Positions 1,582 to 46,177 of a DNA stretch of 51,337 bases are shown piece by piece. Positions within the stretch are counted from its first letter, which is position 1; the number at the start of each line of letters is the position of its first letter. This DNA is from Bacteroidales bacterium (GTDB lineage: Bacteria > Bacteroidota > Bacteroidia > Bacteroidales > UBA6680). The translations under genes and the position numbers were made by a program. Where the stretch lies: contig JAFGOQ010000062.1 of assembly GCA_016926405.1 (NCBI GenBank), positions 1 to 51,337 of the forward strand. Reading direction: 5' to 3'. The notes beneath the pieces were generated by a model, which saw only the letters and a list, made by a program, of their open reading frames with translations, made no database searches and was not told where the DNA came from.

Positions 1582-3792
1582 ATGAAACTAAAGACAAATA
1601 AGATAAGTGGTAAATCTCTATTAAAAATAAGTATACTATTTGGGTTTATTCTGTTGATATTTTTAAGTGCGGCATTTTTTAGAAATCAGATGGCACAAAA
1701 AGATTTGATGGTTTATTCTGATAGTTTTGCCGATTTTGTTGTTAAAGAGTTAGAGAAGGAATTTCTGTGTGTACAATCAAATATTGATTCACTGGCTCAG
1801 ATAATTATAGAAAATGTAGAGGAAGAAAATATTGACGAAATATTAAAAGAGCAAGAGAATGCTCTAAAGAGATGCATTCATTTAGATGGTTTGGCAATAG
1901 CTTTTAAAAAAAATTACTTAATAAAATACCCAGGTTTATATTCACCCTATTTACGTAGGGAAGAAGGTAAGTATGTTATGTTGCAAATTTCTGATATTTA
2001 CGATTATACCTCTGATAAAGCAGGCGTAGACTGGTATCAGCGCCCAGTGAAACAAAGAAAATCTGAGTGGCTTGGACCTATTTATGGTAAAGCTGGTGGT
2101 AGAAAATTATTTATGTATAGTGTTCCTTTGCAGATTAATGGGGAAATAATTGGAGTTATTGCTGCTTGCTATAACCTAATGGAAATTTATGATATACTTC
2201 AAAACACAGGTGCTGGTCGTATAGGCTTCCCTTATATAGTAAATAAAGAGGGAGAGTTTATTGCACATCCGTATAATCAAAATTTGAACTTAAAAGAGGT
2301 AGCAATTGAATCGAATGACAATGTTTTAATAGAATTATCAAATGATATTTATAGTAATACTTTTAATGACGATAGATATTATCATCAAAATACTGTAACT
2401 AAACAATATTGTTGGGAGTTAATTAAGAACATTGATACTTCATCACTTTATATGGGTATTTCTGTTAACGATAACCAGATTTACGGAAATCCAATTTATA
2501 GAAATCAGAAGCGTAAAGACATCTTTGTTTATTCTCTAGTTATTTATGTATTATTATTATGTCTACTCTATTTAATAATTTTTCAAGCAGAACTTTTTAG
2601 AAACAAACTGTCGGTTTTTGTCTCATTTTTCTCACTTATTTCTATTTTGGAAATTATGGTAATCACTACTTTTAGTGTTTACTATCCTGTAATAAATATC
2701 AGTGATGAAGAAACACAAAATATTGAATTCAAGAAGATAAAGATTATTGATAAATACAAAGAGCAATCAAAAGATAGTATCTCGTCTATTGTAAATCGCT
2801 GGAATTTCTCAATGATACTTGATAAGCATGGTCTTGTTGACTACTTAACAAGTTATAAAGAAGATATTACAGGTAAGACAAAAGAAATAGTTAAAGAAGT
2901 GCCAACTGGTGTATACCTTCAAACAATAAAGTTCAAAGATTCGCATAGCACTGATATAACAGGTTATGTTTGGCAAAATTATCCTTTGGATTGGACAGAT
3001 GGCAGAGGTATTATTTTTCCTGATGCAGAGAAAAGCATCATTGTATTGGATGATTCCACAACAATCTTTAATGAAAATGGAGATGTTGTTAATCTGTTTC
3101 GTTGGCGTTTTGAGGTGAGCATTCGCGAACCATTTAATTACATCCATTATCCATTAGATAGGAATGATTTGTGGCTTAGATTATGGCATAAGAACTTTGA
3201 CAAGGATATAATACTTGTGCCAGATTTTTCTTCTTATAGCTTAATTAATCCTGCTTTTACACCAGGGCTCGATGCTGAGATTGATTTACCAGGTTGGATT
3301 ATTGAAGGAAGCTTCTTTTCTTTTAAAGAGAAAGAATATAATTCAAGTTTTGGGAAAGAAATTTACGATATCAAGCATTTTTTTCCCGAACTACATTTCA
3401 ATATTATGCTTCATCGAGATTTTAGAGATCCCTTGATTTGTAAGGTGATTCCATTATTGGTGCTGCTATTTATGTTATATTCAATTCTTTTTATTGGGGG
3501 ACACACTGATGGATTAAATGTAGTTATTGGTTGTTCAGGTCTATTCTTTGTTGCTATTTTTGAGCATATACACCTTCGTCAGAGTTTAAATGCTTCAGGA
3601 ATTATCTTTTTGGAATATTTATATTTTATTACTTATCTCTTATTGCTTTTGGTTACTTACTGTGCTATGCGTAATGACATAATTATTAAAGTAGGTTCCA
3701 GGGATGTAAGCATAATTAATATTGCAAAATTATGTTTTTGGCCACTATTCTTTTTTCTCATCCTAATTGTATCTTGTTATACATTCTATTAG
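1582..3792 (+). CDS. Cache-domain sensor fused to a prokaryotic pentameric ligand-gated ion channel (pLGIC / Cys-loop family) module
   Basis: 736 aa. Layout: N-terminal TM (aa 14-33); Cache-like block (aa ~100-300, e.g. DWYQRP...LFMYSVPLQINGEIIGVIAACYNL...GFPYIVNKEGEFIAHPY); two TM helices (aa ~314-334 and 343-367). Then a pLGIC-like extracellular domain: VYLQTIKFKDSHSTDITGYVWQNYPLDW, IIFPDAE, and YPLDRNDLWLRLW at the position of the FPFDxQ Cys-loop motif. Then pre-M1 HRDFRDP and four C-terminal helices (M1 aa ~617-639, M2 ~644-664, M3 ~673-695, M4 ~713-735) with a very short M3-M4 loop. Confidence 0.6.
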   Translation: MKLKTNKISGKSLLKISILFGFILLIFLSAAFFRNQMAQKDLMVYSDSFADFVVKELEKEFLCVQSNIDSLAQIIIENVEEENIDEILKEQENALKRCIHLDGLAIAFKKNYLIKYPGLYSPYLRREEGKYVMLQISDIYDYTSDKAGVDWYQRPVKQRKSEWLGPIYGKAGGRKLFMYSVPLQINGEIIGVIAACYNLMEIYDILQNTGAGRIGFPYIVNKEGEFIAHPYNQNLNLKEVAIESNDNVLIELSNDIYSNTFNDDRYYHQNTVTKQYCWELIKNIDTSSLYMGISVNDNQIYGNPIYRNQKRKDIFVYSLVIYVLLLCLLYLIIFQAELFRNKLSVFVSFFSLISILEIMVITTFSVYYPVINISDEETQNIEFKKIKIIDKYKEQSKDSISSIVNRWNFSMILDKHGLVDYLTSYKEDITGKTKEIVKEVPTGVYLQTIKFKDSHSTDITGYVWQNYPLDWTDGRGIIFPDAEKSIIVLDDSTTIFNENGDVVNLFRWRFEVSIREPFNYIHYPLDRNDLWLRLWHKNFDKDIILVPDFSSYSLINPAFTPGLDAEIDLPGWIIEGSFFSFKEKEYNSSFGKEIYDIKHFFPELHFNIMLHRDFRDPLICKVIPLLVLLFMLYSILFIGGHTDGLNVVIGCSGLFFVAIFEHIHLRQSLNASGIIFLEYLYFITYLLLLLVTYCAMRNDIIIKVGSRDVSIINIAKLCFWPLFFFLILIVSCYTFY

Positions 3793-34307: not shown

Positions 34308-34679
34308 CTATAAATATTTGGCTAATATTTTCTTGATTTTTTCAATCGAGTATGGTTTTATCATAATATCGTTGAAGCCTACTTTTGAATACATATGAAT
34401 GAAATTATTTGGATTGTGTGCAGTAATAGCTATTATTGGGATATCGCATTTTGGTTTTTTTAGTTTGTTTCTAATGTATTTTGTTGCTTCCAATCCATTC
34501 ATGACAGGCATTTCAATATCCATCAAGATAATATCAAAATTGGAGGTTTCAATTTTCTGTATTGCACTTTCGCCATTTTCGGCTTCCTTTATAGCAATAC
34601 CATTGAAAGTTTTTAAAATTTCTTTTAAAAGTATTCTGTTAACCAAAATATCATCAACTATTAGTATTTGCATAAACAA
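34308..34679 (-). CDS. single-domain response regulator (CheY-like receiver)
   Basis: 123 aa. ILIVDD, phospho-acceptor context DIILMDIEMPVMNG, AITAH, and conserved Lys in IMIKPY. Confidence 0.85.
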   Translation of the reverse strand: MFMQILIVDDILVNRILLKEILKTFNGIAIKEAENGESAIQKIETSNFDIILMDIEMPVMNGLEATKYIRNKLKKPKCDIPIIAITAHNPNNFIHMYSKVGFNDIMIKPYSIEKIKKILAKYL

Positions 34680-34686
34680 TATTTTT

Positions 34687-35346
34687 TTACCCTAATTTAC
34701 TAAGAGTTTTTACAATCTGTAAACTTTCAATTATAATGTTTCTTGAATCTATTGAAATAATTCTGTCGTTCTTAAACTCAGTTAATGTTCTAATAAAACT
34801 CTCTTTAGTTGTACCAGCAAGTTCTGCTAATTCTTGTCTTGAAAGGGGAAGAGTGAATGAGTTGTTTTTATATATCTCTTCAGAAAAATATAGAAGAACA
34901 TCTGCAATTCTACCAGGAAGCTGTTTGTGTGTTAAGCTAATTAATCTGTCTGTTGTAGCTATATCGGTATTCAATACATTTTTAATTATTTCTGTAAAGA
35001 AAACACCATTATTTTTTAATATTCTTAATAATACTTGAGCATTAATATATATGATTGAGCAATCATCAAGAGCTATAGCAGAATAGTTGTGGCTTTGATC
35101 GGCTAGTAAAGGTATGATTCCTAGTAATTCGCCTCTTGAAGACAGTCGCACAATATGGTTTTTGTTTAATCTGCCTTCTTTAAATATTTTAACTAAACCA
35201 GATTTTATAAGGGCTACTTCGTTTATTCGACTATTTTGTTTTGTTATTAGGTCTTTCTTTCTATATAATGCTTCATAACTATTTTTGTTAATAGCAATGA
35301 TTTCATCTTCGTTTAGACAGTCAAAAGTAGGAATTACACAATCCAT
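34687..35346 (-). CDS. Crp/Fnr-family transcriptional regulator
   Basis: 219 aa. cNMP-binding-like beta-roll (LIKSGLVKIFKEGRLNKNHIVRLSSRGELLG) and C-terminal HTH (SRQELAELAGTTKESFIRTLTEFKNDRII). Only 7 nt upstream of the receiver gene. Confidence 0.8.
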   Translation of the reverse strand: MDCVIPTFDCLNEDEIIAINKNSYEALYRKKDLITKQNSRINEVALIKSGLVKIFKEGRLNKNHIVRLSSRGELLGIIPLLADQSHNYSAIALDDCSIIYINAQVLLRILKNNGVFFTEIIKNVLNTDIATTDRLISLTHKQLPGRIADVLLYFSEEIYKNNSFTLPLSRQELAELAGTTKESFIRTLTEFKNDRIISIDSRNIIIESLQIVKTLSKLG

Positions 35347-35679
35347 ATTGTAATATTTTACGTTTTCGTTACTAAATATATAAAAAAAATATTAAAGGTG
35401 ATTTATGTCAGTGTCACTATTATTTTATCTCATCATATAACTTGTGATATTAGTGTAGTATTAGAGATATATTTGAGCATGAAATGAAGATTTTTATAAT
35501 CTAACAGAGAGTATAAAATGACTAATTAATGTAATTTATAATATATGTTAACAATTTACCTAAATAATATGCATACTAATTTTAATTATGGAGTGGTATA
35601 TTATATAAAGGTTATTAGCAAAACAGAAAAAATGAATTTTATTAGTATTAATAGTAAGAAAATCGTAAACCCTAAATAA

Positions 35680-36003
35680 ATGGAATCTATTAAAATTAAA
35701 CTGAAGCCAAAAATTAATCGAGGAATAAAAACAGCAATCATTTCATTTGATGGTGAGTTAAACACTATTTCTTCATCAGAAATTCAAAAATATTTTTTAA
35801 ATGATACTTTGTACTTCGATAAGTACATATTAGATTTTTCTGGGATAACAAATTTTAGCTTTAAATTTATTGATGTTATTGTTACTTTTAAAAAAATAGA
35901 AAAAAAGATAAATCGAAGCTTTAAATTCAAATTTGACATTTCTTGTAACTATAATAGTATTTTAGATAATACTAATTTTTATAATTATAACATTCAGAAT
36001 TAA
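35680..36003 (+). CDS. small STAS-like (anti-sigma-antagonist-fold) protein, tentative
   Basis: 107 aa. TAIISFDGELNTISSSEIQKYF...YILDFSGITNFSFKFIDVIVTFKK follows the STAS strand/helix pattern. It lacks the canonical DSSG phospho-serine context. Confidence 0.35.
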   Translation: MESIKIKLKPKINRGIKTAIISFDGELNTISSSEIQKYFLNDTLYFDKYILDFSGITNFSFKFIDVIVTFKKIEKKINRSFKFKFDISCNYNSILDNTNFYNYNIQN

Positions 36004-36005
36004 TA

Positions 36006-36191
36006 ATGAGTGGTAGCTTGCTCTGTACTTCTGATTCCTATAAAAATGATATCATAATCATTAATCTGTCTAGTGATTTATCAAAAAGAAATATTGAGAT
36101 TTTTTTTATGAATGTTATACACTGAATAATTTCTGATGTATCGGTCTGTTTATTCTCACTGAAGGAGTGGAATAGATTAATATCTTATTAA
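36006..36191 (+). pseudogene. degraded tandem copy of the STAS-like ORF (in-frame TGA, truncated)
   Basis: MSGSLLCTSDSYKNDIIIINLSSDLSKRNIEIFFMNVIH, then TGA (36123-36125), then in the same frame IISDVSVCLFSLKEWNRLISY. The two parts parallel the IISFDGEL... and ILDFSGITNFSF... segments of the upstream ORF. Confidence 0.25.
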
Positions 36192-36455
36192 TTTGTTGTT
36201 AAGTGTAAAAAAGGCAATTAAATGTCCTGATTATTAAAAGGAGTTAAGTTTAATTGTCGCACAAATTTATTATACCCATTGAAAAATTGTATAGCTATTT
36301 CTGAATTGACAGTTTAAACAATCTTTTATACCTTTTACTAATTGTTTGATTATTTGTTTTGACTGAACTCTTTATGCTTTATGCCAGCAACTAATTAATT
36401 CAATTATTAAATCATTTATTTTCCTGATTGATTAAAATAATAAAAACTTTATTAG

Positions 36456-38480
36456 ATGATTGAGGAATTTATAGATAAGTTTAAATCCGAAGCGCTTGAG
36501 TATGTTTCTGTATTAGAAGCTAATATGTTGCAATTAGAGCAAGATCCTAATGATGCAGTTCTTGTTGAAGAGATTTTTAGAGTAATGCACAATCTCAAAG
36601 GTAATAGCTCAATGTTTGGTTTTTTTAATATCGATAATATTGCACATTCACTTGAGAGTCTTTTCGATAAAGTTAGAAATGGTAAAATAACTATTGATTC
36701 ATATTTTGTTACGTCAATATTGGAAATAGGAGATTTCCTGAGGGTTCTTATTAATAGTAACGACGAAATTTCTCAGGAGAGTAAGCTTACAAAAAATAGG
36801 TTTATCTCTAAGATAGAAGAGATAATGTCTTCTGAAAATCATGATAATATTTCTGTAGATTCAAAGATGTTGTCAGAAATAGATAAGCAAAATTCATTGT
36901 ATTATATTTTTGTTGATTTCAAGAGCTTAATTCTTAGAGACGGGATTAATCCAATGTCTTTTATCGATGATGTTTGTTGTTTTGGGAATTCATGGGTTCA
37001 TCCTGTTACCCAAAGATTTCCTTCATTAATTGAGTTAAATACTAAATTAAATAATCAGTCTTGGGAAATTATTTTATTCACAAATAGGAGAAAGAGTGAA
37101 ATAGCCAATGTTTTTTTATCAATTGAAGACATGGTTAATGTTGAGATTATAAAAATCTCAGATGTTGATTTATTAAATGATAAGTCGATTTTGAATAAAT
37201 TAAATAACGAATGTAATGTTTCTTATAAGTTGGGTATATCGAAAATTTGCGATTTGCTTTCTTTAGAAGTGCCTTATGTTAATAAACGTGCAACTAATGA
37301 AATAGTTGATAGTCAGATAAATTCAATAAGAGTGGCTTCTTCAAAACTTGATGAGCTGATAAATATTGTTAGCGAGCAGGTTATTGTACAAGAACGTTTA
37401 AAAATGTTATCAAAGAATATACTTGATGATGAGTTGTCTAGAATAACTGATGGTATTGATAAGTTGACTAATAAATTAAGAAATGTTGCATTCGCTTTAA
37501 TATTAATTCCCATTAAAAGTCTGTTCCCAAGATACCAGCGTATGATTAGGGACGTAGCAAAAGAATTAGGTAAAGATATTGTTTTTGATATTAGCGATAA
37601 TAACACCGAACTTGATAAATATGTAGTAGAATGTTTATCTGACCCACTAATGCACTTAATTAGAAATTCGTTAGATCATGCCATAGAAAAAGCCTCAGAG
37701 CGTCTGTTAAAAAACAAGTCTGAGAAGGGTAAAATAACTATAAAATCGTATTATTCAGGTGCGCATGTTATTATAGAGGTGTCAGATGATGGAAGGGGTA
37801 TTGATGTAAACATGGTTAAAGAGAAGGCTATTAGAGAGGGTTTACTAAACAAAGACGATAATATTCCAGATAATCAGGTAATTAATTTTATTTTCAGTCC
37901 AGGTTTTTCTACTGCCACTAATGTAAGTGATATCTCTGGAAGAGGAGTAGGGCTAGATGTTGTTTTTAAAAACATCTTAAACTTACGAGGTACAATATCT
38001 GTGGATACTTGTCAAGATAAAGGAACAACTTTTACGATTAAATTGCCTATTACTCTTTCAATATTTGACGGATTGATAATTAAGGCAAATGGGAATAAGT
38101 ATATAGTCCCATTGTTTTCTGTACAGAAAATATTACCAATAGAATACATCGATATCATTAATAATACAACCAAGTTTGTTGTAATTAATAAAAAGCGAAT
38201 CCCCTTTGTTAATCTAATTGAAGTTTTTGAAGGGGAAAGAAATGATGATATAAATATGGCAAACATGCTTATTGTAGAAATAGATGGAAGGGAGTTTGGT
38301 ATTATTATAGATGAGGTTCTAGGAGAGTACCAAACTGTTTTAAAGTCTATTAATAGTTTTGTAAATGTTCAAGATATTTTTTTAGGAGCCTCTATTTTAG
38401 GTGATGGAAAAACTGTTTTAGTATTAGATATTAATAGTCTTGTAAAAGCTCGATTAGGTTTAGAAATGTTTATTAATTAA
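36456..38480 (+). CDS. cheA: chemotaxis-type histidine kinase CheA (no C-terminal receiver)
   Basis: 674 aa. Hpt site FRVMHNLKGNSSMFGF; dimerisation helix IRVASSKLDELINIV; HATPase blocks LMHLIRNSLDHA, DDGRGID, GRGVGLDVV; C-terminal CheW-like domain. Confidence 0.9.
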   Translation: MIEEFIDKFKSEALEYVSVLEANMLQLEQDPNDAVLVEEIFRVMHNLKGNSSMFGFFNIDNIAHSLESLFDKVRNGKITIDSYFVTSILEIGDFLRVLINSNDEISQESKLTKNRFISKIEEIMSSENHDNISVDSKMLSEIDKQNSLYYIFVDFKSLILRDGINPMSFIDDVCCFGNSWVHPVTQRFPSLIELNTKLNNQSWEIILFTNRRKSEIANVFLSIEDMVNVEIIKISDVDLLNDKSILNKLNNECNVSYKLGISKICDLLSLEVPYVNKRATNEIVDSQINSIRVASSKLDELINIVSEQVIVQERLKMLSKNILDDELSRITDGIDKLTNKLRNVAFALILIPIKSLFPRYQRMIRDVAKELGKDIVFDISDNNTELDKYVVECLSDPLMHLIRNSLDHAIEKASERLLKNKSEKGKITIKSYYSGAHVIIEVSDDGRGIDVNMVKEKAIREGLLNKDDNIPDNQVINFIFSPGFSTATNVSDISGRGVGLDVVFKNILNLRGTISVDTCQDKGTTFTIKLPITLSIFDGLIIKANGNKYIVPLFSVQKILPIEYIDIINNTTKFVVINKKRIPFVNLIEVFEGERNDDINMANMLIVEIDGREFGIIIDEVLGEYQTVLKSINSFVNVQDIFLGASILGDGKTVLVLDINSLVKARLGLEMFIN

Positions 38481-38494
38481 AGATATTATATGAT

Positions 38495-38956
38495 ATGGAA
38501 AGTGTATTGAATTCATTTCTAATTATTTCTTTGGGGAAAGATATTTTTGCTGTTAACATTAGTAACATTCTTTGTATAGTAGAGCCTTCTGAAATAACAG
38601 AAATACCAGATTCTCCAAATTTCATTAGAGGTATTACAAATTTTAGTGGAGTGATTTTACCTGTTTTAGATCTAAAAACAAAGATGAATTTGGGATCAAC
38701 CGAAATAGTGAAGAATGTTTGCATTGTGGTTTTTGAAAAAATTGGGGATAATAAGGAAGTTAAAGTTGGAGTTCTTGTTGATAGTGTCATTTCTGTTATA
38801 GAAATTAAGGAGGATGAAATAGATAGAACTCCTATTAATGGCATTTATTCCCAATATATTAATGGTACAACTTTTTTTGATAATCAGATAATTATGATTG
38901 TTGATATTAATGCTGTTTTTAGCAAAAGTGAATTATCAGTAGATCAGCTTGTTTAA
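38495..38956 (+). CDS. cheW: chemotaxis coupling protein CheW
   Basis: 153 aa. FLIISLGKDIFAVNISNILCIVEPSEITEIPDSPNFIRGITNFSGVILPVLDLK. Confidence 0.85.
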   Translation: MESVLNSFLIISLGKDIFAVNISNILCIVEPSEITEIPDSPNFIRGITNFSGVILPVLDLKTKMNLGSTEIVKNVCIVVFEKIGDNKEVKVGVLVDSVISVIEIKEDEIDRTPINGIYSQYINGTTFFDNQIIMIVDINAVFSKSELSVDQLV

Positions 38957-39032
38957 ATAAGATATTTGCGTTATGAAGCTTAATTAATTCTTAATATCAT
39001 TAAAATAATACAGAAATAAAACCAGTGGACTT

Positions 39033-41054
39033 ATGAAACTAGTAGATATAAAACTTAGAAGTAGAGTAATGTTAGGTTTTGGACTAATTATTCTTATAAT
39101 AATTGCAGCTGAAGGATTTATTTTTTTTAATATGATAAATATTAAAAAAGCTTCAAATGAATTTATTAATAAAGATTCAAATCAGATTGTTTTCGCAAAT
39201 ATAATTGAGGATAATTTTCGGTTGTCCATTCTTTCATTTAATAAATATGTAATCTCTTATGACAAAAAAGATTTAGAAGAATGTTATTATTACCATAATA
39301 AGGTCAAAGAAATTATACAGAGAGGTGAGCAAATCATAGCTCGTTTTGGTATAAACGAAGATCTAAATAAAGATTATCAAAAAACTGTTGGTTTTCATAA
39401 AGAATATGAAAAGGCCATTAATTCTACCTCATTGTTACTCAATCAAATCAACGATTCAAGAAATATATATCTTAATAGAATCGATAAATTAAAAGCAAAT
39501 TTTAATAATGAATTAAAAAATAGACTAAACAATAAAAGGGTAAATAATGAAAAAATATATCAGCTTTTTGCGGAGTCTATTAATAGCATTGATAATGTAT
39601 TATTGTTAACATATAAATCTCGAGTAAATGATTCTGTTATTGAATTCGATGAAATATTCAGCTTACTGAATAAGATAAAGGTTAATGTAGAAGCCATCGA
39701 TAATAATTCAAATAGCTTGTTTAAGCTAGAATCATTTGAAAATATAAAGGTTATTGAAGATGAAATATCTGAACTTAAATTAGATTTTGTTTTATTAAAA
39801 GAAAATAATATAAATAGATCAGAGTTATTTGATAATGTTATAGCTGTAAATTCAGGAGTGTATCAACGTGGAATTGAATCAACCATAAATAGAGCTACTC
39901 TTATAAATGACCTCTCAAATAAGTCGTATAAGACTATGATTCTTTTCGACATAATTGTTGTTGTTGCGATGTTAATAATTACTTATTTTTTTACATCCTC
40001 AATTTCTAAAGGTTTTGCTAATAGTGTATCAATTGCAGAACAAATTTCAAAGGGTGATTTAACGTGTAGTATTGATCAAGAGTATTTACAAAGAAAAGAT
40101 GAGGTAGGTAATTTATCTAGAGCCATGTATAAAATGCTTATAAATATGAAGCAAATGGTAGCTAGTATTACCGAAACAGCTAATCATATATCAGATGCAA
40201 GTATTGATTTTACAACTGCATCACATAGGCTCTCATCAGGAGCAAATGACCAAGCTTCTTCTACTGAAGAGATATCTTCATCTATGGAACAAATGGCAAG
40301 TAATATATTACAGAATACTGAAAATTCTCAACTAACAGAGAGTATAGCTATTGCAGCATCAGAGCAGATAAGGATTAGTAATAAAGGTGCTAATTTAGCT
40401 ACAAAATCTATGGAGGAGATAACCGAAAAAGTTGCAGTAATAGGTGATATTGCTTTTCAGACAAATATTTTGGCTTTAAATGCTGCTGTGGAAGCAGCTA
40501 GGGCTGGAGAACAAGGAAAAGGTTTTGCTGTAGTTGCTGCCGAAGTACGAAATCTTGCCGAGAGATGTAAAATGGCAGCTAACGAAATAAATGCAGTTTC
40601 TTTATCGGGAGCTAGTATAGTTAGTGAATCGGTAAATAAAATTGCATTGGTTGTTCCTGATATAGAAAAAACAGCTAAGCTGATACAGGAAATTACGGCA
40701 GCCTCTATTGAACAAAATTCAGGTGCAAACCAAATTAATATTGCTCTTCATCAACTTAATAAAGTAACTCAGCAAAACGCTGCTACATCTGAAGAATTAG
40801 CTGTTTCTGCCGAAGAATTATCTCGTCAGGCAGATCAATTAAAACATTTTGTGTCGTTTTTCAAGACAGATAAAAATTGGAGTGCTATACCTGAAAACAA
40901 AACTAGTGATGTGCTTAATAAAAATATTACGAATGAGAGAATAGGATCTTTTGAAGATGTAAACTTTGAAAACGATATTTTTAATTCTAAGTATAAAAGT
41001 GGAGTTGAGTATAATTTATACGAAAGGAATGATGACAAATTTGAAAATTACTAA
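39033..41054 (+). CDS. methyl-accepting chemotaxis protein (2 TM, helical periplasmic sensor, HAMP, MA domain)
   Basis: 673 aa. TM1 at aa ~12-32, a ~270-aa periplasmic region, TM2, then HAMP ([15 protein letters not shown]...[13 protein letters not shown]). Signalling hairpin tip [36 protein letters not shown]. Confidence 0.9.
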
Positions 41055-41181
41055 TGCAATTTTATTTTTAATAGAAGTTTAAATATTGAATTTTTTATTA
41101 GTTGAATAATTGTAAAATATTTTTTTTAAGTGACTCTATAAGAGTAGATTTTTTCAGTAAAGAGATATAAAAGAAGATTAA

Positions 41182-42000
41182 ATGACTGTATTAAAATCAA
41201 TTTTTAATGATAAATTAACAAAGTCTGATTATAATTTTCTCAGAGAGATTATATACAATCATTCTGGAATTTTTTTAGCAGATAATAAATACGTTATGGT
41301 GTCGGCAAGGTTGGTAAAACGTTTGAAAAATCTGCAGATTGATACTTTTAAAAAGTATGTAGAATTATTTAGAACAAAAAAAGGAGCAGATCAGGAAATT
41401 CCATATTTAATAAATTTAATTACAACAAATAAGACCGATTTTTTTCGAGAGAGTACTCATATTGATTTGCTATGCAAATTTGTTAAGGAAATATATAAAT
41501 GCCAACAAATAAAAATATGGAGTGCCGCTTGTTCAACGGGTGAAGAACCATATTCTTTATCGATTTCGTTGTATGAAATTGGGGCTAACTATTCAATACT
41601 AGCTACTGATATTGATACTAATGTTTTGGAAATAGCTTCTAAAGGAATTTACGATGAGACAAAAATAAATAATTTGTCGGACGATATTAAAAAGAAATAT
41701 TTTTTAAAAAGTAAAGATTCTAGTTCTAATCTTATAAAAGTAGCTCCATTTTTAAATGATAAGGTAATATTTAAGTATCACAACCTTGTTTGTAAATTAG
41801 ATACGCAATATAAATTCGACATTATTTTTCTTCGTAATGCGTTAATTTATTTTGATCAAGAATCTCAAAATACTGTAATAAACAATGTTCTAGCAAATTT
41901 AAAAAAGGGTGGATTCATTTTTTTAGGCCATTCTGAGTCCATTGCATATAGATTTCCAAATTTACATTTTGTAGCAAACTCTGTTTATCAATATTTATAA
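41182..42000 (+). CDS. cheR: chemotaxis protein methyltransferase CheR
   Basis: 272 aa. TNKTDFFRE, IWSAACSTGEEPYSLS, FLRNALIYFD. Confidence 0.9.
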   Translation: MTVLKSIFNDKLTKSDYNFLREIIYNHSGIFLADNKYVMVSARLVKRLKNLQIDTFKKYVELFRTKKGADQEIPYLINLITTNKTDFFRESTHIDLLCKFVKEIYKCQQIKIWSAACSTGEEPYSLSISLYEIGANYSILATDIDTNVLEIASKGIYDETKINNLSDDIKKKYFLKSKDSSSNLIKVAPFLNDKVIFKYHNLVCKLDTQYKFDIIFLRNALIYFDQESQNTVINNVLANLKKGGFIFLGHSESIAYRFPNLHFVANSVYQYL

Positions 42001-42130
42001 CCCATTATTATGCAAAGAATGATTAATGAAGAACTTGTAAAACCACCAGAGCAGAGGTTTATAGAAAAAGATAAATCAATAATGTTATTAGCCTATTTTC
42101 TTATGATCTCATTTTAAAAGAACTAAAGTA

Positions 42131-42613
42131 TTGAATATGATGGGATATACTAATGATATAAAAGTTAATAAGAACATTTTTTTAATGCCCGAAAGAATCT
42201 GTATTTCAAATTCAGGAGCTGTGTTTCATACAATTTTAGGTTCGTGTGTTTCGGTATGTTTGTGGGATAAGGTTACAAGAACAGGTGGGATAAACCATTT
42301 TTTATTACCTCGTTGGGATGGAGTAGGTGTAGCGTCATCTAAGTATGGTAATATTGCTATCGACCAATTAATTAATAAAATGGAAGCAGAGGGTTGTGAA
42401 CGCGAAAATATAAAGGCTAAAATTTTTGGTGGTAGTTTTATGATGTCTACTAGCAATGATTTATTTGAAATAGGTAAGCAAAATATTGATATAGCATTAA
42501 AAATGCTGAACGAGTATAAAATAGAAGTTATAGCTAAACATGTTTTAGGTAATAGAGGAAGACGAATTATTTTCGATACCTCTAATGGTGTAGTCAGTAT
42601 GAAGTTAATTTAA
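42131..42613 (+). CDS. cheD: chemoreceptor glutamine deamidase CheD
   Basis: 160 aa from TTG 42131; ATG alternatives at 42137 and 42140. LGSCVSVCLWD...GGINHFLLP...KIFGG, typical of CheD. Confidence 0.85.
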   Translation: MNMMGYTNDIKVNKNIFLMPERICISNSGAVFHTILGSCVSVCLWDKVTRTGGINHFLLPRWDGVGVASSKYGNIAIDQLINKMEAEGCERENIKAKIFGGSFMMSTSNDLFEIGKQNIDIALKMLNEYKIEVIAKHVLGNRGRRIIFDTSNGVVSMKLI

Positions 42614-42622
42614 TATTAAATA

Positions 42623-43699
42623 ATGAATAGAAAGACCAAAATACTTATTGTAGATGATTCCAAGGTAACTAGAGAGATTCTAAGGTTTCTTATTCAGGAA
42701 GATGGTTCAATGGAGGTTATTGGTCTTGCTCAGTCGGCATTTGAGGCAGTAGATATTATGAAAACAAATGTTCCTGATGTTATGCTTTTAGATATTCAGA
42801 TGCCAATTATGGATGGATTAACTTTTTTGCAAAAAATAATGAGTCAACATCCTTTAAAGGTTTTAATTGTATCCTCTATTATAGATTCAAATAATTCAGT
42901 TGTAGCAAAAGCTCTTAAGTTGGGTGCAATTGGAGTAATACGAAAGCCGTTTATTAAAACAAAAAACGATTTGGATAAATTTGGTAATAGCATTCGTCAG
43001 AAGATTATTGAATCATTAGAAATCCAACAAAAAAATGAATCTGATAATAATTCCCAAATATCTTGTAGCTTAAGTGTTAATGATATTTACCCTTTGTATA
43101 AAAGAATAACCAACAAAAAATTACATCCAGTAATTTGTATTGGAGCCTCCACTGGGGGGATTTATTTTCTTGAATTGATTTTTGCAGTCTTAACACATAA
43201 ATCGCCTCCTGTAGTTGTAGTTCAACATATTTCATACGATTTTGTGTCATCCTTAGTTCAACGTTTAAATAATACTTATTTGGTAAATATTGTAGAAGCG
43301 TATGATGGGTGTTTGATAGAGAATGGTAATGTTTATTTTGCTAAGGGAGGCAGTCATACTATTGTTAAGCGAATTGGTGACTCATATTATTTGAAAATTC
43401 TAAATAAAGAGCCAGTAAATCGACATAAACCATCAATTGATGTGTTATTCAGATCTGCTGCTCTTGAATGTCAATCAGATTGTACTGGTATTTTGCTTAC
43501 TGGAATGGGGAGCGATGGAGCTGTTGGGTTACTCGATATATTAAATAATGGAGGACTTACAATTGCTCAAGATGAAGAAACATCTATAGTTTTCGGTATG
43601 CCAAAAAAAGCTATTGAACTTGGAGCAGCAAAAAAAGTTTATTCTATTGATACCATAGTAGATTTTATTAAGTTTATGAAGCATCCATTGTCTTTCTAA
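42623..43699 (+). CDS. cheB: chemotaxis response regulator protein-glutamate methylesterase CheB
   Basis: 358 aa. REC domain (ILIVDDS, DVMLLDIQMPIMDG). Esterase domain with GASTGG, VVQH and GMGSDGA. Confidence 0.9.
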   Translation: MNRKTKILIVDDSKVTREILRFLIQEDGSMEVIGLAQSAFEAVDIMKTNVPDVMLLDIQMPIMDGLTFLQKIMSQHPLKVLIVSSIIDSNNSVVAKALKLGAIGVIRKPFIKTKNDLDKFGNSIRQKIIESLEIQQKNESDNNSQISCSLSVNDIYPLYKRITNKKLHPVICIGASTGGIYFLELIFAVLTHKSPPVVVVQHISYDFVSSLVQRLNNTYLVNIVEAYDGCLIENGNVYFAKGGSHTIVKRIGDSYYLKILNKEPVNRHKPSIDVLFRSAALECQSDCTGILLTGMGSDGAVGLLDILNNGGLTIAQDEETSIVFGMPKKAIELGAAKKVYSIDTIVDFIKFMKHPLSF

Positions 43700-43861
43700 T
43701 TAAACTTATCTGTGTGTAAATAATATAATTTCTACTATAGATTTTTTATTGTCTATAACATTCCTTGATTAAAAAAAATAATACTATTTTAGACCATCAT
43801 TTTTGCAGGTGCTTTTTGTTACCTGTATTTTATTGTTTGTTCACTTTTTTGATATAAATAT

Positions 43862-46129
43862 ATGAGTAAGATTAAGGGTAATAATGGGCTTTTAAATAGG
43901 TTAACGTTAATGGGGTTTTGTATAGGATTTATTTTTCCTCTAATAGCCTATTTGTTTGATTTTTATTTTAAAGGAATAGATGTTTCCTTTTCTAATGTTT
44001 GGTATTTACATACTAAAAATTATTTTCTATTTGTAGTCGATTTAGTCCCAATTTTTGCTGCTCTAATAATAAGAAAGTATGGCGGAAAATATCTGTTAAT
44101 TAAGCGCGAATATTCTCAAGCAATAGAAAAAAATGATCAGAATAACGACCGTCTTAATAGATATATAGTCAATTTATCTAACGGAAACTTAAATGAAGTG
44201 GATATAGATGGTGAGGATTCTCTTTCTTCGGCACTATTAAGTTTAAAGAATAGTATACTAGATAAAGAAAAAGAAGAAAAAATTCAGAAAGAAAAGGACG
44301 ATCAGCGTAGATGGGAAGTTCAGGGGTTTGCCGACTTTTCTGAAGTAATAAGAAATAATAGTAACGATATTTCGACCCTTTTATCTACTTTAATTAGCAA
44401 TCTGGTGAAGTATGTTGACTGTAATCAGGGAGGTATTTATCTTTTAAATGATGAGGGTGATAAATACTTTGAGTTAAAAGGATCATACGCTTTCGGAAGA
44501 AATAAATTCTGTAATAAAACTACTCCTTGGGGCGAAGGTCTTATAGGTTCGTGTGCTATAGAGAAGAAAAAGATATATATTAAAAAAGTGCCCGATTCGT
44601 ATATCGAAATTACTTCTGGACTTGGACAAGCTAATCCTAAAGTTCTATTGTTAATGCCTATGATTGCCAACGATAAAGTTGTGGGTGTTATTGAAATAGC
44701 TTCGTTTAATGAAATGGCTGATTACCAAATTGAATTTGTTTCTAAAATTGCTGAAATTCTTGCTACATCAATAGCAAATGTTAAGATTAATGGAATAACA
44801 TCTACTCTTCTTGAAGAATCGAGACAGCAGCACGAAGTAATGTTGGCACAAGAGGAAGAGATGCGTCAGAACCTTGAAGAGTTACAAGCTACTCAAGAAG
44901 AAATGGCTCGTCAAAGTGAAAACTTTATTAGTTTTACTAATTCGGTAAATCATACATTGATTCGTGCCGATTTCTCAAGATCTGGGCATCTTATTTATGG
45001 TAACACAAAGTTCATAACAAAGTTAGGATACGAAGATAGTTTCGAGTTGGAAGATAAACATATATCGACCTTTTTAAATAAAAACGATAGGGAGTGGTTC
45101 GAAACTGTTTGGGATGGTCTTAGCCGAGGAGGTAAACACTTCGAAGGTTACATGAAGCTTCAGACAAAGCAGGGCGAAGATTTATGGACTATCTCAACAT
45201 ACACATGTGTTAGAAATAACGATGGTTCTATTGATAAAATTTTGTTTTTAGGAATCGATAATACCGAACAGAAAAATCAAAGTATCGATTTTGAAGGTAA
45301 AATGAAAGCTGTTTCTAAGGTTAACCTTTTGGCCGAATTTACTGCAGCAGGTGAGACAATAACTGCTAACGATAAATTTCTAACAAGCTTTAATCAAAGC
45401 AACGATTCGTTTGCCGAGTCTACCGTTTTTAAATTATTCCCAGATAATACAGGCATTAATATTGATAAAGCTTGGGACGATGTTATTAATGAAATGTCGG
45501 TTGAAGGAATGATAAATACTCACGATGCCGATAATAATGAGCATTGGATTCATGGCTTTTTTACTTATGTAAAAGATCTTAATAATACTATATCTAAAAT
45601 TGTTTTTGTTGGTATTGATGTTACAAAAGAAAAGCAGATGGAGATTGCTGCCGATGAACAAAACAAGTTGCTAGCAGTACAACAACAAAAGTTAATGAAT
45701 TCGGAAGAGGAGCTGAAAAGACGTCTGAAGATTGCTAAACAAGAAATAAAGAATCAGTATCAAGAGATGGAGGTTAAGAGTCTTAGATACATGAAGCTTA
45801 CCGAGAATACACTCGATTCAATAGTTGTTTTTAATGTCGAAAAAGGAGTTATTGAGCATTGCAATAGTAATTTCTGTAAACTATCGGGATACGAAAAAGA
45901 GGCTATTGAAGGTAAGAATGTAAGCTCGTTGTTTTTCGATACCGAAGTAGATAAAAATAACTTTTTACAAGACTTGATTGATAATAAGAAAAGAAAGACT
46001 GTTGGTAAGTATCACCAATTTGGATTGAAAAAAGTTGACGGATCGAGCTTTGAAGTAAAAGCATACGCTACCGAAATGAAAATTGCTAAAGAAATTTCGT
46101 GTACTCTTTTTATTCAGTCGGTTCAGTAA
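43862..46129 (+). CDS. membrane-anchored GAF plus multi-PAS sensor protein with no recognisable output domain
   Basis: 755 aa. Two N-terminal TM helices. GAF (GGIYLLNDEGDKYFELKGSYAFGR...GEGLIGSCAIEKKKIYIK...VVGVIEIASF). A coiled coil (EEMRQNLEELQATQEEMARQ). About three PAS-like modules, the last being LDSIVVFNVEKGVIEHCNSNFCKLSGYEKEAIEGKNVSSLF. The protein ends right after the last PAS. Confidence 0.75.
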   Translation: MSKIKGNNGLLNRLTLMGFCIGFIFPLIAYLFDFYFKGIDVSFSNVWYLHTKNYFLFVVDLVPIFAALIIRKYGGKYLLIKREYSQAIEKNDQNNDRLNRYIVNLSNGNLNEVDIDGEDSLSSALLSLKNSILDKEKEEKIQKEKDDQRRWEVQGFADFSEVIRNNSNDISTLLSTLISNLVKYVDCNQGGIYLLNDEGDKYFELKGSYAFGRNKFCNKTTPWGEGLIGSCAIEKKKIYIKKVPDSYIEITSGLGQANPKVLLLMPMIANDKVVGVIEIASFNEMADYQIEFVSKIAEILATSIANVKINGITSTLLEESRQQHEVMLAQEEEMRQNLEELQATQEEMARQSENFISFTNSVNHTLIRADFSRSGHLIYGNTKFITKLGYEDSFELEDKHISTFLNKNDREWFETVWDGLSRGGKHFEGYMKLQTKQGEDLWTISTYTCVRNNDGSIDKILFLGIDNTEQKNQSIDFEGKMKAVSKVNLLAEFTAAGETITANDKFLTSFNQSNDSFAESTVFKLFPDNTGINIDKAWDDVINEMSVEGMINTHDADNNEHWIHGFFTYVKDLNNTISKIVFVGIDVTKEKQMEIAADEQNKLLAVQQQKLMNSEEELKRRLKIAKQEIKNQYQEMEVKSLRYMKLTENTLDSIVVFNVEKGVIEHCNSNFCKLSGYEKEAIEGKNVSSLFFDTEVDKNNFLQDLIDNKKRKTVGKYHQFGLKKVDGSSFEVKAYATEMKIAKEISCTLFIQSVQ

Positions 46130-46147
46130 AAAATATGAATAACTATT

Positions 46148-46177
46148 AAAGGTTGCTTTTATTGGCAACCTTTTTTT
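46148..46177 (+). terminator. rho-independent terminator at the end of the che/GAF-PAS gene string
   Basis: AAAGGTTGC (46148-46156) / GCAACCTTT (46166-46174), with the T-run continuing to 46177. Confidence 0.75.

What the first reader, a model, noticed from the sequence alone, without database searches (positions are those of the whole stretch)
34308..46129. Complete Che-like chemosensory operon in a Bacteroidota-type context, with no CheY and non-motility-looking neighbours
Six contiguous same-strand genes encode the full core plus adaptation set: CheA, CheW, MCP, CheR, CheD and CheB.

What is missing matters as much. There is no single-domain CheY in the operon, no CheC/X/Z, and no flagellar or motor genes anywhere in 51 kb.

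The string is instead bracketed by:
- a STAS-like ORF plus a decayed copy (35680-36191)
- a membrane GAF-PAS sensor with no output domain (43862-46129), which shares the only strong terminator (46148)
- a divergent Crp/Fnr regulator and stand-alone receiver pair (34308-35346)

The flanking genes are typical of a phylum that is generally non-flagellated. A Che pathway here is therefore more likely wired to an alternative output than to flagellar rotation. Candidates are transcription via Crp/REC, partner switching via STAS, or gliding/surface behaviour.

The block also looks visibly more AT-rich than the core genes in the window.
Basis: partly seen in the sequence, partly recalled or inferred. 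Interest (0 to 1): 0.75.

Follow-up and report, generated by a model that had tools for sequence, protein, structure and literature searches.

The report
CheY-less remnant of Bacteroidota chemosensory cluster
This uncultured Bacteroidales genome carries an intact, still-selected chemotaxis-type signalling operon that has lost its own CheY output protein and two partner genes, making it one stage in a natural step-by-step dismantling of a chemosensory system that is widespread but unstudied in a phylum generally regarded as non-flagellated.

Summary
CheA, CheW, a 2-TM MCP, CheR, CheD and CheB lie in one same-strand string. They are flanked by a divergent Crp/Fnr-receiver pair, a STAS protein plus a STAS pseudogene, and a membrane GAF-PAS protein followed by a strong terminator. 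The window is a whole contig of an NCBI 'Bacteroidales bacterium' MAG.

The missing CheY is a lineage-specific deletion, not a design feature. At least 11 related Bacteroidota loci carry STAS-CheY-CheA-CheW-(MCP)-CheR-[His-less kinase-like ATPase]-CheD-CheB. Most also carry GAF-PAS and, in Bacteroidales-type loci, the Crp-receiver pair. The window lacks CheY, the kinase-like gene and the ancestral STAS. A sister species also lacks CheD and the CheA P2 domain. A syntenic related lineage lacks the whole che core but keeps the accessory genes.

The retained genes are under purifying selection (dN/dS 0.05-0.35) and their catalytic residues are intact. The CheY-less pathway has therefore been kept functional for a long time.

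The ancestral gene order matches 'stage 1' F7 systems, which are not thought to drive flagella. The receptor is 34H with a C-terminal pentapeptide. The output is unresolved: the neighbouring receiver, an unlinked CheY, or CheB only.

This is a new variant of a known kind, of moderate interest.

The parts
34308..34679 (-). Stand-alone receiver (REC_div). The likely start is the ATG at 34673, giving 121 aa. It is co-transcribed downstream of Crp with a 7-bp gap.
   Evidence: Response_reg E 3e-26. The DD, D53, T and K positions are present. It is 68% identical to L001, 80% to L089 and 91% to L004. Window vs L004 dN/dS is 0.085.
34687..35346 (-). Crp/Fnr-family regulator, divergent from the che operon.
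   Evidence: cNMP_binding + HTH_Crp_2. dN/dS 0.07. Conserved next to REC_div in 8 related loci.
35347..35679 (.). Conserved divergent intergenic (regulatory) region.
   Evidence: 89% identical to L004, against 64-69% for the neutrally evolving pseudogene stretch. No Rfam match.
35680..36003 (+). STASa, a divergent STAS (anti-sigma-antagonist-like) protein. It is a lineage-specific paralogue of the cluster's ancestral STAS.
   Evidence: Pfam STAS E 0.0017. The family profile hits RsbV/SpoIIAA. dN/dS 0.07. Retained in che-less L089.
36006..36222 (+). STASb pseudogene: a remnant of the ancestral STAS gene that precedes cheY in relatives.
   Evidence: Profile hit at 8.5 bits in register, with a frameshifted continuation and a shuffle control. 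64-69% identity and many gaps vs L004.
36291..36375 (+). Conserved block upstream of cheA, a probable promoter region. The cheY gene of relatives would lie between the STASb remnant and cheA.
   Evidence: 87% identical to L004, while the flanks are 49-64%. tblastn with two CheY queries finds no remnant.
36456..38480 (+). CheA with P1(Hpt)-P2-P3-P4-P5.
   Evidence: Pfam. H45 and the N/G1/F/G2 boxes are intact and the P2 invariants are kept. PDB CheA E 7e-84. dN/dS 0.17.
38495..38956 (+). CheW.
   Evidence: Pfam E 8e-28. dN/dS 0.35.
39033..41054 (+). MCP with two TM segments, a ~260-aa periplasmic domain of unknown family, HAMP, a 34H signalling domain, methylation-type EE sites, and a linker ending in the C-terminal pentapeptide KFENY.
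   Evidence: Pfam. Best PDB match is E. coli Tsr, with one symmetric 7-residue gap per arm. TM segments. The pentapeptide x-[FY]-E-x-[FY] is conserved in 8 cluster MCPs. dN/dS 0.14.
41182..42000 (+). CheR methyltransferase.
   Evidence: Pfam E 1e-53. dN/dS 0.11.
42001..42130 (.). 130-bp gap at the position where relatives carry the ~300-aa His-less kinase-like gene.
   Evidence: The gene is present between cheR and cheD in L001, L002, L006, L008, L086, L087, L088, L090 and L091. There is no tblastn remnant in the CheR-CheD gap; the only weak L002 HK-like hit falls inside cheA.
42131..42613 (+). CheD deamidase.
   Evidence: Pfam E 2e-28. 52% identical to L001. Absent in sister L004.
42623..43699 (+). 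CheB (REC + methylesterase).
   Evidence: Pfam. The receiver Asp and the Ser/His/Asp motifs are present. dN/dS 0.11.
43862..46129 (+). Membrane-anchored GAF-PAS-PAS-PAS protein with no output domain.
   Evidence: Pfam. TM-like segments at 10-36 and 51-74. Invariant QEEEMRQN.EELQATQEE motif. dN/dS 0.055.
46148..46173 (+). Intrinsic-terminator-like hairpin closing the string.
   Evidence: 10-bp stem, 4 GC pairs, T-run.

Best explanation
The region is a genuine, selectively maintained chemosensory pathway: a 2-TM 34H MCP, CheW and CheA forming the signalling complex, with CheR, CheB and CheD for methylation-based adaptation.

It is a reduced derivative of a chemosensory cluster that is ancestral at this chromosomal locus in Bacteroidales and widespread in Bacteroidota. 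The ancestral order is STAS-CheY-CheA-CheW-(MCP)-CheR-[His-less kinase-like ATPase]-CheD-CheB-GAF/PAS, facing a divergent Crp-receiver operon.

In the lineage of this MAG three genes were lost before its split from a sister species: the dedicated CheY, the kinase-like gene and the ancestral STAS. The remainder has since been kept by purifying selection.

The ancestral system resembles, by gene order, the non-flagellar 'stage 1' F7 systems of Gammaproteobacteria. It is inferred not to control flagella.

In the window, CheA-P can still feed CheB for adaptation. My preferred output (inferred, not shown) is phosphotransfer from CheA P1, with P2 docking, to the neighbouring 121-aa receiver that is co-transcribed with the Crp/Fnr regulator. 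This would link receptor occupancy to gene regulation or another non-flagellar target.

Sub-probabilities:
- Functional reduced Che pathway derived by gene loss: about 0.85.
- Non-flagellar: about 0.9.
- Output through the neighbouring receiver: about 0.3.
For: - **Domains and catalytic residues are intact**.
- **Same synteny with the full gene set in L001**: YgjP-HU-REC-Crp / STAS.../ GAF-PAS-TonB receptor. L086 and L090 share the YgjP-(HU/SPOR)-REC-Crp flank and GAF-PAS.
- **The full cluster occurs widely**, including L002, L006, L008, L087, L088 and L091.
- **No remnant of cheY or the kinase-like gene**, but a statistically supported STASb pseudogene.
- **The losses are shared with L004 and L005**.
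- **dN/dS for window vs L004 is 0.055-0.35 for the retained genes**, like the flanking housekeeping genes (0.055-0.32). The STASb remnant has drifted to 64-69% identity with indels.
- **The P2 domain keeps all family-invariant residues in the window**.
- **The receiver is tied to the cluster.** It lies inside the che operon in L006 and next to the cluster in 8 further loci, two of them fetched with the receiver itself as query.
- **Gene order equals F7 stage 1**, whose function is reported as unclear.
- **Most of the best non-Bacteroidota CheA hits lie in clusters with the order (MCP)-CheY-CheA-(MCP)-CheW-CheR-CheD-CheB.** This is the P. aeruginosa Che2 / F7 stage 2 order as I recall it. Some are preceded by STAS.
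Against: - Only this 51-kb contig of the MAG can be seen, so an unlinked cheY or other che genes cannot be excluded.
- The receiver, Crp, STASa and GAF-PAS persist almost unchanged in L089, which has no che core at the locus. The C-terminal 44 residues of the receiver are identical. The receiver is therefore not strictly CheA-dependent.
- The receiver shows no accelerated change after CheY loss.
- The clade shows continuing erosion. L004 lost CheD and CheA P2, and L089 lost everything, so the system may be on its way out.
- Che core proteins of the window lineage are 2-10 identity points more diverged from an outgroup than those of L001.
- Class assignment is unresolved. In an NJ tree the Bacteroidota CheAs form their own clade, not nested in the Pseudomonas/Klebsiella F7 clade. 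The receptor is 34H, as reported for F8, not 36H.
Confidence: 0.5

Rival explanations
1. The pathway is complete, and its cognate CheY has simply moved or is encoded elsewhere in the genome. The operon-level absence would then say nothing about the output.
For: The window is one 51-kb contig of a MAG. The window CheA keeps an intact P2 (CheY-docking) domain. Related genomes often carry several single-domain receivers around the cluster.
Against: - The sister species L004 has deleted the P2 domain in frame, as expected if no CheY needs docking.
- A search with the closest available CheY gives 98% and 96% hits and then drops to 69% or less. No hit is attributable to this MAG.
- Ten NCBI-sourced clusters were checked. 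None carried an accession in the MBN111xxxx range, but half showed no accession at all. This is inconclusive.
Confidence: 0.25
2. The cluster is a non-functional relic in the course of deletion. After CheY loss nothing useful is signalled, and the intact ORFs merely have not decayed yet.
For: There is stepwise loss across the clade: window, then L004 (minus CheD and minus P2), and L089 (minus the whole che core). The Che proteins evolve somewhat faster in this lineage.
Against: - At dS of about 0.3-0.6 between window and L004, all seven retained che-string genes stay open, with dN/dS 0.055-0.35.
- The adjacent true pseudogene has drifted to 64-69% identity with 55 gap columns.
- Catalytic residues, methylation sites and the MCP pentapeptide are conserved.
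Confidence: 0.12
3. This is ordinary flagellar chemotaxis in an unusual flagellated Bacteroidales.
For: The CheA of a relative is not filed under ACF in a published table. The components are canonical.
Against: - No flagellar or motor gene was found in 51 kb.
- Host taxa of the cluster (Bacteroidales, Tenuifilaceae, Anaerophaga, Reichenbachiella, Ekhidna) belong to lineages known, from general knowledge, as non-flagellated or gliding.
- The most similar gene order (F7 stage 1) is reported not to drive the motor.
Confidence: 0.02
4. The block is a recently acquired AT-rich island.
For: The block is 29.0% GC against 33.4% for the rest of the window.
Against: - The same flanks (YgjP, HU, Crp-REC on one side; GAF-PAS and the TonB-dependent receptor on the other) bracket the cluster in L001, and partly in L086 and L090, at 38-68% protein identity.
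- Neighbouring non-che genes are equally AT-rich.
- No mobile-element genes are present.
Confidence: 0.03

Closest known systems
'Stage 1/2' F7 chemosensory systems of Gammaproteobacteria (V. cholerae cluster III, P. aeruginosa Che2), Ortega et al. 2020, PMC7184735
   Same: The ancestral Bacteroidota order STAS-cheY-cheA-cheW(-cheW)-mcp-cheR-cheD-cheB matches the described stage 1 order. CheD is present and CheZ/CheC are absent. The system is not thought to drive the flagellar motor, and its function is unknown. Most of the best non-Bacteroidota CheA hits lie in clusters with this gene order.
   Different: - The receptor is a 2-TM 34H MCP with a C-terminal pentapeptide, not a cytoplasmic poly-PAS/HAMP 36H Aer2.
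- An extra His-less kinase-like gene sits between cheR and cheD in the Bacteroidota family.
- A GAF-PAS protein replaces the downstream mcpA/STAS/PP2C genes.
- The CheAs form a separate clade.
- The window lacks CheY altogether.
F8 chemosensory class
   Same: [quoted passage not shown]
   Different: No other defining feature of F8 could be checked. The class HMMs are not available here.
Myxococcus xanthus Che3 (CheY-less Che cluster signalling to the CrdS/CrdA transcription system), PMC3147164
   Same: [quoted passage not shown] The output is a transcription regulator, and an accessory kinase is associated with it (abstract seen).
   Different: Che3 is an ACF-type system with an NtrC-type output. 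Here the neighbour is a Crp/Fnr regulator plus a stand-alone receiver. CheY absence is a recent loss, and the accessory kinase-like gene has also been lost.
RsbV/RsbW and SpoIIAA/SpoIIAB partner-switching modules
   Same: The small ORFs are STAS proteins whose profile matches RsbV/SpoIIAA. The family's kinase-like protein has a GHKL ATPase domain that also hits HATPase_c_2, the RsbW-type model.
   Different: The window has no kinase and no PP2C phosphatase. The aligned phospho-Ser position of STASa is Lys. No sigma factor is nearby.

Membership tests
Chemosensory (Che) pathway | MCP with the conserved signalling hairpin and methylation sites | tested here: met
   MCPsignal E 4e-30. Aligns to Tsr residues 186-519, including the EE methylation motifs.
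Chemosensory (Che) pathway | CheA with Hpt phospho-His, dimerisation, ATPase and CheW-like domains, plus a separate CheW | tested here: met
Chemosensory (Che) pathway | Adaptation enzymes CheR and CheB | tested here: met
   CheR E 1e-53 and CheB_methylest E 1e-53, with an intact REC.
Chemosensory (Che) pathway | Dedicated single-domain CheY in the cluster | tested here: not met
   No ORF and no tblastn remnant between STASa and cheA. Relatives have one.
F7 class (stage 1 type) | Gene order anti-sigma antagonist-cheY-cheA-cheW-cheW-mcp-cheR-cheD-cheB | tested here: inconclusive
   Met by the relatives. The window keeps the order but lacks cheY and the ancestral STAS.
F7 class (stage 1 type) | 36H Aer2-like (cytoplasmic PAS-HAMP) receptor in the cluster | tested here: not met
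   The receptor is 2-TM and 34H, with one heptad missing per arm relative to Tsr.
F7 class (stage 1 type) | CheA assigned to F7 by class-specific HMMs or phylogeny | tested here: inconclusive
   The class HMMs are not available. In an NJ tree of 87 CheA cores the Bacteroidota sequences form their own clade, outside the Pseudomonas/Klebsiella clade.
F8 class | 34H receptor with two transmembrane regions | tested here: met
   The definition is taken from PMC7184735.
F8 class | CheA/CheW/CheB/CheR assigned to F8 by class HMMs | not testable with these tools
   No class HMM library is available.
ACF class | CheA classified ACF (often with a C-terminal receiver) | tested here: not met
   The window CheA has no REC domain. 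The 683-aa orthologue of Reichenbachiella sp. 5M10 is absent from the ACF rows of Berry et al. Table S2. This is indirect, and the table is truncated after part of the F1 rows.
Partner-switching module | STAS antagonist, plus a cognate Ser kinase (RsbW-like), plus a PP2C phosphatase | tested here: not met
   Only STASa is present. The kinase-like gene is deleted. No PP2C was found in the window.
Flagellar chemotaxis | Flagellar motor/switch genes in the genome | not testable with these tools
   None in the 51-kb contig.

The most novel reading that the evidence does not exclude
Bacteroidota possess a phylum-wide, non-flagellar chemosensory system built from a STAS protein, CheY, a histidine-less kinase-like ATPase, CheD and a membrane GAF-PAS protein. 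This MAG is a natural minimal mutant showing that the MCP-CheA-CheW-CheR-CheB core can be kept under selection for a long time without any dedicated CheY. That would imply a CheY-independent output, either through the conserved Crp-linked receiver or through CheB/CheR-dependent modification only.
Probability: 0.3. Interest if true: 0.7.

Novelty: new variant of a known kind. Interest (0 to 1): 0.5.

Why it matters
Chemosensory pathways are understood almost entirely through flagellar or pilus outputs. A conserved Che cluster in gliding or non-motile Bacteroidota has no known output.

The loci assembled here form a natural deletion series:
- full set;
- minus CheY, kinase-like gene and STAS;
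- minus CheD and CheA P2 as well;
- minus the whole core.

The series shows which parts travel together. STAS, CheY and the His-less kinase-like gene are absent together. It also shows which parts are independent of CheA: the Crp-receiver pair, STASa and GAF-PAS.

This gives concrete, testable hypotheses for cultured carriers such as Tenuifilum, Anaerophaga and Reichenbachiella. It could also shed light on the still-unknown function of the related 'ancestral F7' systems of Vibrio and Pseudomonas.

Tried and rejected
- **Class assignment.** No class HMMs are available. The NJ tree of CheA cores did not nest the clade in any recognisable class. Berry et al. Table S2 is truncated after ACF and part of F1, so it only excludes ACF, and probably F1, for an orthologue.
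- **Genome-contig scan.** Only 6 Bacteroidota or Ignavibacteriales loci came back.
- **Literature.** Nine searches (one rejected for a too-short term) found no functional study of a Bacteroidota Che system. Wuichet & Zhulin 2010 is not held.
- **Conserved intergenic regions.** No Rfam family matched in the window or in 35300-36500. A sigma-70 promoter scan was uninformative: 90 sites against 87 expected, and Bacteroidota promoters differ anyway.
- **Relocated CheY.** No hit was attributable to this MAG. The accession check of 10 clusters was inconclusive.
- **GAF-PAS as a CheR/CheB substrate.** Its invariant EE-x-x-A-T-x-EE motif suggested this. However, the motif is unchanged in L089, which has no CheR or CheB at the locus, so the idea is not supported.
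- **Tails as NWETF-type tethers.** The C-terminal tails of the kinase-like protein ((D/E)E(I/V)F) and of GAF-PAS (SV(D/E)LF) lack the aromatic residue at position -4. Rejected.
- **HGT island.** Rejected on synteny.

Full report
**What is there**

ORF listing and Pfam scans confirm the gene string as described. A stand-alone receiver (34308-34679, minus strand) lies downstream of a Crp/Fnr regulator (34687-35346, minus strand). On the plus strand follow:
- a 107-aa weak STAS protein (35680-36003);
- a 452-bp ORF-free gap;
- CheA (36456-38480);
- CheW (38495-38956);
- an MCP (39033-41054);
- CheR (41182-42000);
- CheD (42131-42613);
- CheB (42623-43699);
- a 755-aa GAF-PAS protein (43862-46129).

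A 10-bp-stem terminator follows at 46148-46173.

Catalytic and phospho-acceptor motifs are intact in CheA, CheB, CheD and the receiver.

The MCP has several recognisable features:
- two TM segments and a HAMP domain;
- a signalling domain that aligns best to E. coli Tsr, with exactly one 7-residue gap in each arm, which makes it a 34H receptor;
- Tsr-like EE methylation motifs;
- a low-complexity linker ending in KFENY, a pentapeptide of the NWETF type that is conserved in all eight cluster MCPs examined.

None of the other 32 ORFs scanned (42 in all with the ten cluster genes) hits a flagellar, motor, CheC/X/Z or CheY family. The neighbours are Bacteroidota-typical.

The window is the complete 51,337-bp contig of an NCBI MAG labelled Bacteroidales bacterium.

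The AT-richness is real but not specific. The block is 29.0% GC against 33.4% for the rest, and adjacent non-che genes are equally AT-rich.

**The family it belongs to**

CheA homologues at 35-44% identity are abundant in Bacteroidales, Tenuifilaceae, Anaerophaga, Ekhidna, Reichenbachiella and Chlorobi/Ignavibacteria-type MAGs.

Gene neighbourhoods of eleven such loci show one conserved architecture. In order, it runs:
- a small STAS protein;
- a 121-127-aa CheY, 51-80% identical among five of the loci;
- CheA;
- one or two CheW, and often an MCP;
- CheR;
- a ~300-aa soluble kinase-like protein;
- CheD;
- CheB;
- usually a 630-760-aa GAF-PAS protein.

In Bacteroidales-type loci a Crp-receiver pair is divergent from the operon. 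The whole unit sits between YgjP/HU-like genes and, in the closest relatives, a TonB-dependent receptor. This is the same chromosomal position as in the window.

The reverse test used the receiver as query and inspected three arbitrary hits. All three recovered the Crp-receiver pair, two of them facing a full che cluster. In L006 the receiver orthologue lies inside the che operon.

The STAS assignment rests on a family profile that matches RsbV and SpoIIAA over the full length.

In all seven kinase-like proteins aligned, the H-box histidine is replaced by an invariant Asn, while the ATPase motifs are intact.

**What the window has lost**

tblastn with the CheY and kinase-like proteins of two relatives finds no remnant in the window. 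The only receiver matches are CheB and the divergent receiver. The CheR-CheD gap is 130 bp.

The gap after STASa holds a frameshifted remnant of a second STAS gene:
- A profile built without the STASa rows scores 8.5 bits in register. In 200 shuffles the 95th percentile is 3.9 bits and the maximum 9.3.
- A second frame continues the match collinearly.
- Against the sister species this stretch is only 64-69% identical and has many indels.
- By contrast, the Crp-STASa intergenic region is 89% identical and an 85-bp block upstream of cheA is 87% identical.

L001 has two STAS genes. The one next to cheY groups with the single STAS of other lineages. I therefore read the pseudogene as the ancestral STAS and STASa as a lineage-specific paralogue.

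**A natural deletion series**

| Locus | Relation to window | State of the cluster |
|---|---|---|
| L005 | CheA 97% | Same reduced set |
| L004 | CheA 83% | Same reduced set, and also lacks CheD; its CheA has an in-frame deletion of residues 139-275, the P2 docking domain |
| L089 | Syntenic across window 24-50 kb at 47-90% protein identity; receiver 80-81% | No CheA-CheB block at all; STASa is 500 bp from GAF-PAS; Crp, receiver, STASa and GAF-PAS retained |
| L001 | The outgroup | Full set |

**Is the remainder functional?**

Between the window and L004, dS is about 0.3-0.6. dN/dS values are:
- CheA 0.17
- CheW 0.35
- MCP 0.14
- CheR 0.11
- CheB 0.11
- GAF-PAS 0.055
- receiver 0.085
- Crp 0.07
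- STASa 0.07

Flanking genes give 0.055-0.32. The CheY-less core has therefore been under purifying selection since before the two species split. The window CheA also keeps all invariant P2 residues.

There are signs of loosening. Che core proteins of this lineage are 2-10 identity points further from an outgroup than those of L001. The receiver, Crp and YgjP are not.

**Comparison with known systems**

Ortega et al. describe 'stage 1' F7 clusters with this order: anti-sigma antagonist, cheY, cheA, two cheW, an aer2-like receptor, cheR, cheD, cheB, mcpA, a second antagonist and a serine phosphatase. They report that the function of stages 1-2 remains unclear and that the motor is run by another system. 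They also state that F8 uses a 34H receptor with two TM regions.

The ancestral Bacteroidota order matches F7 stage 1, while the receptor matches the F8 description.

Most of the best non-Bacteroidota CheA hits sit in clusters ordered (MCP)-CheY-CheA-(MCP)-CheW-CheR-CheD-CheB. I recognise this, from memory, as the P. aeruginosa Che2 / F7 stage 2 order. Some are preceded by STAS.

An NJ tree nevertheless places the Bacteroidota CheAs in their own clade. A published CheA table does not list the Reichenbachiella orthologue among ACF rows.

I therefore treat the system as F7/F8-like, with class unresolved. I found no functional study of any Bacteroidota Che system.

**Mechanism**

Shown:
- an intact receptor-kinase-adaptation core under selection;
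- loss of the dedicated CheY, the kinase-like gene and the ancestral STAS;
- conserved linkage of the Crp-receiver pair, STAS and GAF-PAS to the cluster;
- persistence of those accessory genes without CheA in one lineage.

Inferred:
- the system is non-flagellar;
- CheA-P still serves CheB;
- the remaining cis-encoded candidate output is the 121-aa receiver co-transcribed with Crp.

The receiver's survival and near-identity in che-less L089 argue that it has another phosphodonor as well. I give this route about 0.3, an unlinked CheY about 0.25-0.3, and a pathway with no phospho-output beyond CheB, or one in terminal decline, the rest.

**Verdict**

An alternative, non-flagellar wiring is likely, and the accessory genes are truly linked to the cluster. 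However, the 'no CheY' feature is a derived loss within an eroding clade. The partner-switch parts are largely gone. The accessory genes are not dependent on the Che core.

This is a new variant of a known kind. Its interest is moderate, mainly because of the deletion series and the unstudied, phylum-wide parent system.

Noticed in passing
window 1582-3792 (+): A 736-aa membrane protein. It has an N-terminal dCache_1/MCP-like PDC sensor (aa 90-249). Its C-terminal half contains a YP.D 'Cys-loop-like' stretch (HYPLDRNDLWLRLW) followed by several TM helices. It looks like a Cache-fused pentameric ligand-gated-channel-like protein.
   Followed up: partly
L001 15558-16448; L002 14051-14950; L006 13493-14470; L008 15398-16315; L086 13494-14396; L087 16022-16915; L088 15697-16575: The ~300-aa kinase-like gene between cheR and cheD (absent from the window) has a HisKA-like helix in which the phospho-accepting His is an invariant Asn (SNI.NEI.NPF). 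Its ATPase motifs are intact, and its conserved C-terminus ends in (D/E)E(I/V)F. It is possibly a STAS kinase.
   Followed up: partly
window 44843-44905 (GAF-PAS aa 328-348) and orthologues in L001, L004, L006, L008, L086, L089: The motif QEEEMRQN.EELQATQEE is nearly invariant across orthologues and is the most conserved stretch of the protein. It has the heptad pattern of an MCP methylation site. It is unchanged in L089, which lacks CheR and CheB at the locus.
   Followed up: partly
window 46100-46129 (GAF-PAS C-terminus): Relatives with the full cluster end in SV(D/E)(L/F)F. The window, L004 and L089 all lack these last residues. These are the same loci that lack CheY, the kinase-like gene and the ancestral STAS.
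   Followed up: no
window 41037-41054 (MCP C-terminus): The C-terminal pentapeptide KFENY follows a ~55-aa low-complexity linker. The pattern x-[FY]-E-x-[FY] is conserved in all 8 cluster MCPs examined, suggesting a CheR/CheB tether of the NWETF type.
   Followed up: partly
window 35347-35679: The Crp-STASa intergenic region is 89% identical to L004, more conserved than neutral sequence nearby (64-69%). Gene callers place a 44-aa ORF at 35545-35679 in relatives. There is no Rfam match.
   Followed up: partly
L089 5903-10366: A syntenic relative in which the entire CheA-CheB block is missing. STASa, GAF-PAS, Crp and the receiver remain, and the receiver's C-terminal 44 residues are identical to the window's.
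   Followed up: yes
L002 18939-21396; L088 19510-22040: Extra CheR gene(s) plus a receiver-less CheB methylesterase lie next to GAF or GAF-PAS proteins downstream of the main cluster. In L088 this includes a GAF-PAS-SpoIIE (PP2C) protein, reminiscent of the serine phosphatase of F7 stage 1 clusters.
   Followed up: no
L086 7535-9286; L088 7412-9184; L090 7031-8749: A 570-590-aa protein with no Pfam hit sits between an extra receiver and the STAS gene at the head of the full clusters. L091 has a 365-aa no-Pfam protein in the same position. At that position Anaerophaga has a 586-aa MCP.
   Followed up: no
L016 1-5067: A Bacteroidales contig with two tandem CheY-CheA(-CheW) units separated by a Crp-family gene on the opposite strand.
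   Followed up: no
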